Shown here piece after piece: positions 3,001 through 5,909 of a DNA stretch of 5,909 bases. This stretch comes from an uncultured bacterium. Its GTDB lineage: Bacteria > Krumholzibacteriota > Krumholzibacteriia > Krumholzibacteriales > Krumholzibacteriaceae. Each line of letters opens with the position of its first letter. The stretch's first letter is position 1. The position numbers were made by a program. The DNA lies in NCBI GenBank assembly GCA_965371515.1, contig CBDUYR010000095.1, positions 1-5,909 on the forward strand. The letters are read 5' to 3'.

Positions 3001-5909
3001 CGGCCTACGAGGGCATGTCCTCGCCTCTGTTCGGCATCACCCTCGTGATAAGCCTCTACTTCATATTTGAGGCGACCGGGCTGCGGCAGGAGGTGGGCAA
3101 CCAGGCGAGGGTACTAAACGAGATCGTCGACAAGGTCCGCGAGACGCATCACTTCAACGCCGAGGAACTGCACGAACTTATCGGCCACACATGGGCCGAA
3201 GTGACCGGCGGATTCGCGCTCGGACTGTTCATCGCCTGGATAATGTTCTAACCTTTCAGATCCCCGAAAAACCCTTGACACTTAATTGCCCGGGGCAGAG
3301 AATGGCAGTGTGAATCGGATAGTATCATGCCGGTGCATCATTGGCCGGCAGCAGACGGAAAGGGTGATGAGATCGGAACGGGGCTGACCACGCAGAGAGC
3401 ATCGGATTCCGATCCGGGTATGCGTTACTTCAGAATCCAAGCGGGGCCGAATCACCGGGGGTGAATCGGCCCTTTTTCTGAAGAGGGACGCAGGCATTAG
3501 GAACAGAGGTCAGGAGGTGCAGATCAACATGCGGACCATAGCGGTGATAAACCAGAAGGGTGGATGCGGTAAGACGACGGTCGCTGTCAATCTCGCCGCA
3601 GCGCTCGGGGAGCTCGAGAAGAAAGTGCTGCTCGTCGACATGGATCCCCAGTCTCACGCCTCGCTAAGTCTCGATGTAACTTGCCGCGAAGTCGATCATA
3701 CTACGTACGATCTCCTCAGGGATCCGCGAGTGATGGTCGAAGATGCGACATGCCGCTACAACGACCATCTCGACATCATCCCGGCCTCGCCGGTGCTCGG
3801 AGCGGTGGAACAGGAGCTTGCCGGCAAGGACGCGAGGGAGACGAGGCTTGCCTCCAAACTCGTAAGAATAGAGGACAGATACGATTATGTCATCATAGAC
3901 TCCCCTCCGAACGTGGGGCTTCTCACCTTCAACGCGCTCATGGCCGCAGGCGAGGTCATCATCCCGGTCGATCCGAGCTATTACTCCCTGCAGGGAGTGG
4001 GCAGGCTGCTCGAGACGGTTGAACTTCTCAAGAACGAGACGAAGCACAGCGTCACCATGTCGATTCTCGTCAACAATATCGAGAAGAGGACCAATTTCTC
4101 GAGAGACATAGTCCTGGAGCTCGAGCGGCTTTACGGAGCAGAGCTGATGGAGGTGACGATAAGCCATTCGGTCAAGTACAAGGAGGCGGCCATGAGGGGC
4201 GTCTCGATCTTCAGTGTCCCGCGTTCCGACCGGCATAAATGGGAATTCCTCACACTGGCGAGGGAGCTTGAAGACAGGAGCTCGCTGATCGAGATGGCCG
4301 ATATGGGCGAATGGATGGAAAAGCTTCACGGACCTCGTGTCGCGTCCGGCCGCGTGATCTTCTCCTTCGACGCCCCCGTTGCCGTAAGCGTCTGCCTCAC
4401 GGGAGAATTCACCAACTGGTCTCGTGACGGGATAAGGATGGAGCGGGACGGCGATGACGGGTTGTGGAAGGTCGCCGTCGATCTCGATCCGGGAGAATAC
4501 GAGTACAGGTATATCGTCGACGGAATCTGGATAAAGGATCCCAGGAACGTCGATTCGGTCCTTAATGAATTCGGGCAGGAAAACTCTCTGCTTATCGTCT
4601 GAACACCTTGCCGGACTTCACTGCTATGCACCGGGGACACAGGCCCAGAAATCTCAGTGATATAAGTCATCTTTATCTTTCCTCGTCGCGTGTGTCGGGG
4701 GAGGAAGCGGCGGGTTCTACCGCGCTTGTTATGATCGCCTCGTTGGAAGGCGGCCCGCTCCGGGCATGGTTGTCGGCGGGAATGGCCGTCGCGTTCGGAT
4801 CGCAGAACGCCGCCGTGACTCTGCTCGAGACGGGCCAGGGCCTGCCCTGTGCAGGATACTACTTTGCACTGAAACCCAATCGTTACCTGCGCCTCGTGAT
4901 AGAGGATGGGGCGGTCGTCGAAGCGGATGCCGGCCCGAATGTCAGAGTCCGCTGTGCGAGGGATCCTGCCCTTCTGAGGCACCCCGGCAACGGGCATGCG
5001 GCAGGGCCCAGTGTCATTCTTTTTGCATTCGACTGGCCGGGAAGCGCTGGAACCGCCGGACTGCGAGGGTTGCTCGATTCCGTTCCGGCCCTCGAAGGGC
5101 CGGGTGGATGGGAGGAACTTCCCGCCTTCCTGCTCACCGTCTCGGATTGCCGACGCGGAATGGCGGAAGGGATATTACGCGACTTCGAGGACCTCTTTCC
5201 GGGAGGACCTGCGCTTGCCCTCTTTCCGGGAGGGGAAAAGGTGGAAGCGGCACAGGGCATCGAGCCATGCCCCTTCCCGGCAGAGATGCTCGATGGGCTG
5301 GACAGGAGAAAACCTCCCTCCTCGGCCTTTCTGTCCGGGCTTGCCGTTGAGATACTCCAGCGCCTCGGTTCGAGAAAGAGAGGAGCGGCGAGTGACAGGA
5401 AGGGATGAGCGACGCGAAGCGGCAGGACGCAACGGTTCGAGGATCGCCGACGGATGTATAAGGCGCCTCTACTCGATCCTCTGCGACGAGATCATCGGGT
5501 TCTCGCCTTCGGTGACCGTCGAGGCCGCCCCTTTCGAGACGAGATTCGCCACGGCTTCTGGAATGTACGTGAAGGTCTCTCCATATCGCGAGCTGTTCCT
5601 TGTCTCGGCCGGCTGCGAGTCCCCGGTGGAGATAAGGGTTTCAGACGAGGATGGATTTTTCAGGGCCCTCGATCTCGCTCTGGAATCCTTTCTCTCGGTA
5701 TCCGCGCCGCGGACCTGACGGACCGGCATAACGGAGATACATACTATCGACTTTCGTAACGCTCTCCGATTAATTATCTTTCAAGTGAGATGTCGGCCCC
5801 ACCGATAGAAAAAGTGGACATGATGCGAAAAGCCACTGGGTTAATCATATTGGGACTTGCGTGGGGAACGGCGTTTCAGTCCTGCATCTTCCAGACCGAT
5901 CCAGTCAGG

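What a model noticed while it worked through the whole genome (the two positions that open the first line are those of the whole stretch)
3529..4602. ParA-type ATPase fused to a glycogen-binding CBM48 module
g02508 (357 aa) is a complete ParA/Soj-type deviant-Walker-A ATPase (KGGCGKT; residues 1-250) with a C-terminal AMPK-beta/CBM48 glycogen-binding module (274-355). It is separate from the chromosomal parAB pair (g00750/g00751). By analogy with ParA-like ATPases that position carboxysomes, PHB granules and chemoreceptor arrays, it is proposed to tether and distribute glycogen granules over the nucleoid; no ParA that binds its cargo directly through a carbohydrate-binding module has been described.
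Evidence so far: pfam.tsv: AAA_31 1-176 E 2e-53, CbiA, ParA, then AMPK1_CBM 287-355 E 1e-11 and CBM_48 274-332 E 2e-7; 37% id to B. subtilis Soj and M. xanthus ParA over residues 2-250. 215 proteins match residues 240-357; of the 120 listed, 119 carry PF13614 (AAA_31, ParA-type) together with PF16561 (AMPK1_CBM), most at 352-376 aa; one 220-aa partial has the CBM only; named sources Krumholzibacteriota, Latescibacterota, Eisenbacteria. Genome is rich in glycogen genes (glgA g00130, two glgC pairs, glgB GH57 g00786, glgP g01239) and other CBM48 proteins (g01853, g02014-16). Full-text search ParA+glycogen+CBM48+granule+partition gave no paper on such a protein among the 8 top listings.
(Added by a program. 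Inside this text positions count along the whole contig: contig position 1 is position 1 of the stretch shown here. "Call 12" and the like, gene names such as g00115 and contig names such as C1 are that model's own, and its searches are not shown. The text may have been shortened before it was handed on; [...] marks where a part breaks off. The agent that wrote the report below was given it as the finding of a first reader that could run no searches.)

Follow-up and report, generated by a model that had tools for sequence, protein, structure and literature searches.

The report
Glycogen-binding ParA ATPase with activator partner
A bacterial positioning-motor protein carries its own glycogen-binding domain and sits beside a likely activator gene; this untested module, recently catalogued as a possible immune sensor, looks more like housekeeping machinery tied to stored sugar, although some bacteria keep it without any recognisable way to make glycogen.

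Summary
Confirmed: 3529-4602 (+) encodes a 357-aa Soj/ParA ATPase fused to an AMPK-beta-type CBM48, with catalytic, DNA-binding and sugar-stacking residues intact. It is in 109 of 151 genomes of the phylum, inherited vertically, and in many other phyla. It is not undescribed: an October 2026 preprint catalogues ParA-CBM plus inactive second ParA and reads it as immunity; this scan also noted it before on other DNA. My tests go against immunity (CBM more conserved than the ATPase, stable synteny, tree congruent with chromosomal ParA). They only partly support glycogen positioning: 100 of 109 carriers have glycogen-synthesis genes and some sit in glucan operons, but 9 carriers, one a single-contig genome, have none yet keep the binding site under purifying selection, and CBM-less relatives keep the same partner. 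Best reading: a housekeeping ParA-activator module that couples the nucleoid to intracellular alpha-glucan, as tether (0.4) or sensor (0.3). Untested experimentally.

The parts
3275..3303 (+). sigma70-like promoter of the operon (-35 TTGACA, 17-nt spacer, -10 GAGAAT)
   Evidence: 10 of 12 consensus matches; a TTGAC[A/G] hexamer lies 52-288 nt before the start in 68 of 68 loci scored, 70 given. Consensus match, not shown functional.
3444..3479 (+). terminator-like hairpin plus U-run in the 5' leader, between promoter and start codon
   Evidence: Read from the sequence; found 20-70 nt before the start in f1 25/28, f2 4/4, f3 1/1, f9 8/8, f7 5/6, f5 0/3, f6 0/12; 12-bp consensus stem, 8 pairs with two-sided changes in 23 sequences chosen for having it. 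No Rfam family.
3529..4278 (+). Soj/ParA-type ATPase domain (residues 1-250) of the fusion
   Evidence: K10, K15, D37, D39, D124 invariant in 70 of 70 phylum sequences; R187 in 68, K/R216 in 69.
4282..4329 (+). flexible linker (residues 252-267)
   Evidence: pLDDT under 50; 7 to over 350 residues long in distant members.
4330..4602 (+). CBM48 / AMPK-beta-type alpha-glucan-binding module (residues 268-357) and stop codon
   Evidence: W297, W334, G349, N352 invariant in 70 of 70; R/K327 in 68.
4608..5408 (+). partner: ParB-like N-terminal activator helix on a Walker-A-dead ParA/MinD fold (266 aa; start may be the ATG at 4626)
   Evidence: Next gene in 40 of 41 and 9 of 9 phylum loci; profile hits FleN E 8.5e-8 and Soj, with the P-loop lysines lost; Atlas neighbours are ParA/MinD/BcsQ clusters.
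4641..4682 (+). conserved N-terminal basic-plus-amphipathic motif of the partner (residues 12-25)
   Evidence: Best conserved part of a 19-25% identical family; the LG[RK]GL form in 16 of 71 loci from other phyla is the motif that opens chromosomal ParB in this phylum, 29 of 30 loci.
5392..5718 (+). small third gene (108 aa), YdhG/DUF1801-YjbR-frataxin-like fold
   Evidence: In 26 of 41 and 9 of 9 phylum loci; model pLDDT 93.6; best structural match 9T2W Z 8.3, rmsd 3.8, 100 aligned; YjbR and CyaY Z 7.0. No Pfam family.
2829..3251 (+). DUF212 (divergent PAP2) gene, conserved upstream neighbour but before the promoter; probably synteny only
   Evidence: Pfam E 5.3e-35; upstream in 36 of 41 and 7 of 9 phylum loci, in none of 80 loci from the wider scan.

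Best explanation
A vertically inherited housekeeping module of the ParA/MinD kind that ties intracellular alpha-glucan (glycogen in most carriers) to the nucleoid. ATP-bound dimers bind DNA non-specifically through R187/K216 and hold glucan through two CBM48 modules on flexible linkers. The next gene's product docks its ParB-like N-terminal helix in the dimer groove, triggers hydrolysis and releases the ATPase, so that glucan particles are tethered to, spread over or partitioned with the nucleoid instead of piling up at a pole. Shown here: the domains, the conserved residues, the partner and its motif, vertical inheritance, the partial link to glucan genes. Inferred: ATPase activity, DNA binding, glucan binding, partner binding, and that the glucan is moved rather than only sensed.
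For: Catalytic residues invariant in 70 of 70. K216 aligns with M. xanthus R238, whose R238E change removes non-specific DNA binding (alignment; PMC12462528 passages); R187 lies 29 residues before it, the spacing of Soj R189/R218 (PMC3778016 legend). AMPK residues W100, K126, W133, L146 needed for glycogen binding (PMC2642990 passages) map to W297, R327, W334, F348; W297 in 130 of 130, W334 in 126, R/K327 in 124 distant representatives. ParB-pocket residues Y81, E82, E117, L150, L152, L155, L187 map to Y60, D61, E96, V129, L131, F134, L166. A/D ATPases are typically activated by a partner's N-terminus (PMC11407121, PMC12139897 passages). 100 of 109 carriers versus 21 of 42 non-carriers have glycogen-synthesis genes. 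In family f4 the fusion, GlgA, GlgC and the GH57 branching domain are in the same 6 of 10 genomes; in genus g26 only G094 of 12 has the fusion and only it has the branching domain. In G028 the fusion leads a CBM-GT4-GT4-GH57-phosphorylase cluster; a GH57 gene lies within 6 kb in 11 of 71 fusion loci of other phyla.
Against: Nine carriers (G021, G027, G034, G059, G078, G111, G115, G129, G139; 83-96% complete, G078 one contig with two copies) have no GlgA, GlgC, GT3, branching domain, phosphorylase, GH13, GH57 or GH65 match; five were also negative for GlgE, GH77, GH133, GH15 and a true GlgM-type synthase; three have a partial GH31 match. Their CBM stays intact under purifying selection. 21 glycogen makers lack the fusion. 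CBM-less ParAs with the same kind of partner exist in Nitrospirota and others. This locus has no glucan gene nearby. AMPK T148 is replaced by Q350. In known ratchet systems the activator, not the ATPase, sits on the cargo. Kin are not independent, so the co-occurrence rests on few events.
Confidence: 0.4

Rival explanations
1. Glucan-sensing switch. The core system is ParA plus activator-bearing partner, whose own domain (dead ParA, dead REase, MerR HTH, here also the YdhG/YjbR-fold protein) carries the real cargo or output. The CBM lets glycogen or maltodextrin titrate the ATPase off the nucleoid or tune it, as the CBM does in AMPK.
For: The activator helix is grafted on different domains; CBM-less versions keep the partner (L155, L164); MerR upstream in 6 loci; the AMPK CBM is an allosteric glycogen sensor (PMC2642990); own promoter with leader terminator; tolerates loss of glycogen synthesis if the core job persists.
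Against: No output domain with a recognisable activity in this operon; does not by itself explain why the binding site is conserved where no glucan enzyme was found.
Confidence: 0.3
2. The CBM48 fold here binds something other than storage alpha-glucan (another oligosaccharide or a protein), and the system positions or regulates an envelope-linked process.
For: Nine carriers without glucan enzymes; AMPK1_CBM modules in 149 of 151 genomes, many exported; in Omnitrophota the upstream gene is a one-TM protein with an outer CBM-like domain, in a run with a porin.
Against: Both stacking tryptophans and the basic residue are kept across all phyla; co-loss with glgA/glgC in f4; linkage to branching enzymes and phosphorylase.
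Confidence: 0.15
3. Anti-phage carbohydrate sensor whose ParA multimerises to limit infection, as proposed in bioRxiv 10.64898/2026.10.19.760177.
For: The preprint's architecture matches; fast-evolving partner; a dead REase is a neighbour in 13 loci of other phyla, one of which weakly hits a PADLOC candidate model; the fused ParA evolves faster than chromosomal ParA, 48.9% versus 65.6% mean identity.
Against: The preprint's stated grounds fail in this phylum: the CBM is more conserved than the ATPase (57.0% versus 52.2%; higher in 1453 of 1891 pairs); 109 of 151 genomes carry it, nearly always once; tree shares the family clades of chromosomal ParA; neighbours are housekeeping genes such as clpB, glnA, tldD, wecA; no PADLOC hit for the 4 window proteins and 7 weak hits among 75 neighbours; no active effector. 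Across 130 distant representatives the CBM is slightly less conserved than the ATPase (37.0% versus 40.4%), a set picked by an ATPase-dominated score.
Confidence: 0.1
4. An auxiliary chromosome-segregation ATPase driven by chromosomal ParB.
For: Closest solved structures are chromosomal Soj/ParA; most of the ParB pocket is kept.
Against: A canonical parAB exists in this genome and a chromosomal ParA in 35 of 36 carriers checked; the fusion has its own partner; pocket positions D110 and V116 are changed to V89 and Q95.
Confidence: 0.05

Closest known systems
'CBM-containing system' (ParA-CBM, clade ConB5), second variant, of Li, Burroughs and Aravind, bioRxiv 10.64898/2026.10.19.760177 (computational; sections 10-12, 29 passage and 41 read)
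   Same: ParA fused to a C-terminal AMPK1_CBM, followed by a fast-evolving inactive ParA.
   Different: Third gene here models as a YdhG/YjbR-like fold, not a recognisable REase; not sporadic in this phylum; CBM not fast-evolving; the passages read do not mention the ParB-like activator helix; my evidence favours housekeeping over immunity.
Chromosomal ParABS (M. xanthus ParA 8RAY, Thermus and H. pylori Soj)
   Same: Fold, motifs, DNA-binding basic residues, most of the ParB-binding pocket, partner with a ParB-type N-terminal helix.
   Different: No ParB CTPase/HTH partner beside it; extra CBM48; partner body is a dead ParA/MinD fold; the genome has its own parAB.
McdA-McdB carboxysome positioning and other cargo-positioning A/D ATPases (PMC11407121, PMC12139897)
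   Same: Orphan nucleoid-type ParA plus an adjacent divergent partner with a basic N-terminal helix.
   Different: The putative cargo receptor is on the ATPase rather than the activator; the review's main text has no occurrence of 'glycogen' or 'granule'; cargo genes are not beside it at this locus.
AMPK beta-subunit CBM48 (PMC2642990)
   Same: Fold and four of five glycogen-contact positions.
   Different: Attached to a P-loop ATPase in bacteria; T148 replaced by Q.
FleN/FlhG and BcsQ (MinD-like regulators)
   Same: The partner's fold is nearest FleN by profile.
   Different: The partner lacks the Walker A lysines; the active ATPase is Soj-like, not MinD-like.

Membership tests
ParA/Soj ATPase (PriB1 type) | Deviant Walker A KGGxGK[ST] preceded by N; DxD followed by Q; Walker B Asp | tested here: met
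   N8, K10, K15, T16, D37, D39, Q41, D124 invariant in 62 of 62; definitions from preprint sections 10 and 12.
ParA/Soj ATPase (PriB1 type) | C-terminal basic residues for non-specific DNA binding | tested here: met
   K216 aligns with M. xanthus R238; R187 68/70, K/R216 69/70. Sequence level only.
ParA/Soj ATPase (PriB1 type) | ATP-dependent dimerisation, ATPase activity, nucleoid binding | not testable with these tools
   Needs biochemistry and imaging.
Chromosomal ParABS | Adjacent parB, in the origin-region gene block | tested here: not met
   Next gene is a dead ParA/MinD fold; true parAB is on contig C10.
CBM48 / AMPK1_CBM | Profile score above curated cut-off | tested here: met
   42.8 versus 26.8 bits and 29.8 versus 22.4 bits.
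CBM48 / AMPK1_CBM | Glycogen-contact residues W100, K126, W133, L146, T148 | tested here: met
   W297, R327, W334, F348 kept or conservative; T148 is Q350, so four of five.
CBM48 / AMPK1_CBM | Measured glycogen binding | not testable with these tools
   Needs a pull-down or calorimetry.
ParA-CBM system of the 2026 preprint | ParA fused to C-terminal AMPK1_CBM | tested here: met
ParA-CBM system of the 2026 preprint | Second, inactive, fast-evolving ParA | tested here: met
ParA-CBM system of the 2026 preprint | Inactive REase gene | tested here: inconclusive
   Third gene's best folds are YdhG/YjbR/frataxin; no profile likeness to the REase-like neighbours of other phyla, hhalign probability 0.35%. 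A middling Z does not exclude other folds.
ParA-CBM system of the 2026 preprint | Rapid CBM divergence and sporadic distribution (its grounds for immunity) | tested here: not met
   Within this phylum.
ParA-CBM system of the 2026 preprint | Placement in clade ConB5 | not tested
   The preprint's tree rows are in supplements that were not available.
McdAB-like cargo positioning | Adjacent partner with basic N-terminal helix | tested here: met
McdAB-like cargo positioning | Encoded with the cargo's genes | tested here: inconclusive
   Not at this locus; yes in G028 and in 11 of 71 loci elsewhere.
McdAB-like cargo positioning | Partner stimulates the ATPase; gradients move the cargo | not testable with these tools
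   Needs biochemistry and imaging.

The most novel reading that the evidence does not exclude
This is a dedicated active positioning system for a polysaccharide store, with an inverted design: the cargo receptor (CBM48) sits on the nucleoid-bound ATPase while a ParB-type activator helix is carried by a separate dead ATPase that marks where glycogen is let go. It would be ancient, used across a dozen poorly studied phyla, and would counter the polar glycogen build-up that skews division in E. coli.
Probability: 0.35. Interest if true: 0.8.

Novelty: new member of a known kind. Interest (0 to 1): 0.5.

Why it matters
In E. coli glycogen collects at the old pole, displaces the nucleoid and skews division (PMC11042326 abstract). 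My searches listed no paper on an ATPase that positions glycogen. A ParA with a built-in glucan receptor and a defined activator peptide makes the question directly testable in a laboratory strain, and could give a portable tool for placing carbohydrate condensates. The work also supplies a concrete challenge to the only printed interpretation (immunity) and a set of glycogen-less carriers that any model has to explain. The score is held down because the architecture is already catalogued, this scan has met it many times, and nothing is shown experimentally.

Tried and rejected
Expression: no RNA holder listed; the one weak run gave short contigs of relatives and shows nothing about transcription. 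Rfam found no family in the leader. Third ORF: no Pfam or PDB sequence match; Foldseek gave nothing under E 0.001; no REase among the top folds. Alternative glucan routes in glycogen-less carriers (GT3, GlgE, GlgM-type GT4, the G028-type GT4, GH13, GH15, GH57, GH65, GH77, GH133) were not found in those searched; GH13 is also missing from the window's own genome, so that one absence does not discriminate. PF00343 scored one phosphorylase type poorly, so the search was repeated with TIGR02094. Presence of other AMPK1_CBM proteins does not track the fusion (149 of 151). A quick tree did not resolve whether all fusions are one clade. Cluster look-up gave few names. Literature searches 'ParA glycogen CBM48', 'ParB LGRGL' and 'Krumholzibacteriota glycogen' gave no relevant listing; the preprint was found through earlier scan notes. 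Its supplements could not be seen and may hold taxon lists or the REase alignment. Artefact (chimeric frame) rejected: full-length homologues throughout the best 120 listed and in 109 genomes.

Full report
Observation. The frame 3529-4602 (+) gives 357 aa. Pfam places a ParA-type ATPase at 1-176/226 and a CBM48 of the AMPK-beta type at 274-355, both above cut-off. The model shows a Soj-like domain, a loose linker at 252-267 and a beta-sandwich, nearest to chromosomal Soj/ParA structures. The genome's canonical parA-parB is elsewhere. Named homologues and the nearest Atlas cluster point to Candidatus Krumholzibacteriota.

Distribution. A full-length or CBM-covering match is in 109 of 151 genomes sampled from the phylum (tallied), as a single gene except for two copies in G078 and a split one in G146. 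Of 149 cluster representatives at 50% identity that I scored (of 150 listed), 131 have both domains, with linkers from 7 to over 350 residues.

Residues. Walker A, the DxD sensor and Walker B are invariant in 70 of 70 phylum sequences. Using the 8RAY alignment, anchored on its D60A site, K216 corresponds to M. xanthus R238, needed for non-specific DNA binding (PMC12462528 passages); it is K or R in 69 of 70 and 101 of 130 distant members. Counting along the AMPK beta1 alignment, the glycogen contacts W100, K126, W133, L146, T148 (PMC2642990 passages) correspond to W297, R327, W334, F348, Q350. Both tryptophans are invariant in the phylum and kept in 130 and 126 of 130 distant members.

The operon. 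The next gene (4608-5408) is present in 40 of 41 and 9 of 9 phylum loci. Its profile matches FleN (E 8.5e-8) and Soj but the P-loop lysines are gone. Its best conserved part is an N-terminal basic stretch and amphipathic helix. Outside the phylum the same helix begins with LG[RK]GL in 16 of 71 loci, and 32 of 71 match a looser pattern for which I ran no shuffle control. That is the motif opening chromosomal ParB in this genome and in 29 of 30 chromosomal loci, where the ParA-binding motif lies (PMC12462528 passages). Seven of ten ParB-pocket positions are kept or conservatively replaced; D110, V116 and L192 are changed, as expected for a private partner. In other phyla the helix is attached to a dead ParA, a REase-like domain or a MerR-like HTH. 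The third gene (5392-5718) folds like YdhG/YjbR/frataxin, Z 8.3, a middling score. A promoter-like hexamer precedes the fusion in 68 of 68 loci scored, and a terminator-like hairpin with compensatory changes lies in the leader in five families.

Prior description. Earlier notes of this scan (look-alikes in 55 windows of 53 genomes) led to bioRxiv 10.64898/2026.10.19.760177. I read its abstract, sections 10, 11, 12 and 41, and the full section-29 passage. It describes ParA-CBM with either a TM-CBM gene or an inactive ParA plus inactive REase, calls it sporadic with a rapidly diverging CBM, and proposes immunity. There are no experiments; supplements were not seen.

Test of immunity. In the phylum the CBM is more conserved than the ATPase: 57.0% versus 52.2%, higher in 1453 of 1891 pairs. 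Synonymous change far exceeds non-synonymous change in both domains in 16 of 16 pairs. The fusion tree and the chromosomal ParA tree share clades f4, f5, f6, f8, f6+f8, f7+f9 and f1-f3 (30 and 29 rows). Neighbours are housekeeping genes (34 proteins picked from 9 loci). PADLOC gave no hit for the window's proteins and 7 weak hits among 75 neighbours that I picked from 182. On the other side, the fused ATPase evolves faster than chromosomal ParA (48.9% versus 65.6%), and among distant members the CBM is a little less conserved than the ATPase.

Test of the glycogen link. Of 109 carriers, 91 have GlgA, 5 more have GlgC and 4 have a GT4-GH57-phosphorylase cluster: 100 in all. Of 42 non-carriers 21 have GlgA. 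Family f4 shows exact co-presence in 6 of 10; genus g26 in 1 of 12. In G028 the fusion leads the glucan cluster; in 11 of 71 outside loci a GH57 gene is within 6 kb, nine of them in one Omnitrophota-type porin/GH57/TM-CBM run and so not independent. Against this stand nine carriers, all in the f7+f9 clade, in which no glycogen synthesis, branching or phosphorylase family was found. They keep the operon and the binding residues, apart from the second copy in G078, and their CBMs are under purifying selection with saturated synonymous sites. They also keep exported CBM48 proteins. CBM-less ParAs with the same partner type occur in Nitrospirota and others. So the module is associated with alpha-glucan but does not strictly depend on known glycogen synthesis.

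Mechanism and verdict. By established ParA biology, ATP dimers coat the nucleoid and a partner helix triggers release (PMC11407121 passages). Here the dimer also carries two glucan-binding modules. The simplest reading is a tether that couples glycogen to the nucleoid and is released by the partner (0.4). A glucan-sensing switch, with the real output on the partner side, is close behind (0.3); another ligand 0.15, immunity 0.1, chromosome backup 0.05. It works like a ParA-activator positioning system; it is not chromosomal ParABS; it is a member of the preprint's ParA-CBM system by architecture but fails that paper's grounds for immunity. New member of a catalogued but untested kind; interest 0.5.

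Noticed in passing
window:3304-3528: A 225-nt leader between promoter and start ends in a conserved terminator-like hairpin; leader length varies from about 50 to 290 nt and its sequence is conserved only within a genus. 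It may be an attenuator or a small RNA.
   Followed up: partly
L145 (G000:C49:15970-18710); also L076-L080, L082, L088-L090: A three-gene cluster of exported CBM48 proteins (a signal-peptide CBM protein of about 650 aa and two CBM lipoproteins) is conserved even in genomes with no alpha-glucan enzyme found; possibly an undescribed surface glycan-capture system.
   Followed up: partly
L146:4382-7060 (G000:C41): 893-aa protein with a signal-like start, a weak MGH1-like glycosidase match and a C-terminal CBM48; similar large CBM-ended proteins occur in glycogen-less genomes (L091-L093).
   Followed up: no
L160, L163, L165, L166, L171, L173, L179, L203, L221: Omnitrophota-type arrangement: alginate-export-family porin, GH57, one-TM protein with an outer CBM-like domain, ParA-CBM, then often a 105-110 aa membrane protein. 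The TM protein starts with a conserved cytoplasmic amphipathic helix that might replace the activator.
   Followed up: partly
L157, L161, L182, L190, L193: The ParB-like activator helix is fused directly to the REase-like domain; no dead ParA.
   Followed up: partly
L155:6001-8388, L164:6001-8410: Nitrospirota loci with MerR, a CBM-less ParA of the same group, the dead-ParA partner and the REase-like gene.
   Followed up: partly
L041, L042, L075 (G078): Two paralogues in one single-contig genome: one has changed CBM contact residues; the other is followed by partner, third gene and the stand-alone CBM that elsewhere heads the GT4-GH57-phosphorylase cluster, a likely remnant of a lost glucan operon.
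   Followed up: partly
L047:9967-17128, L136, L137, L138: A CBM-GT4-(GT4)-GH57 branching enzyme-phosphorylase cluster in four genomes without GlgA or GlgC: a candidate ADP-glucose-independent route to branched alpha-glucan.
   Followed up: partly
window:2829-3251: DUF212 gene is a fixed upstream neighbour in this phylum only.
   Followed up: partly
window:1-1197 (-) and 1211-2839 (+): Lipoprotein-like ORF with three Big_5 Ig repeats, divergent from a family-5 ABC substrate-binding lipoprotein; conserved neighbours in families f1-f3; ordinary.
   Followed up: no
G000:C21:48059-48931 and C29:6247-7056: Two further orphan ParA-family genes in this genome.
   Followed up: no
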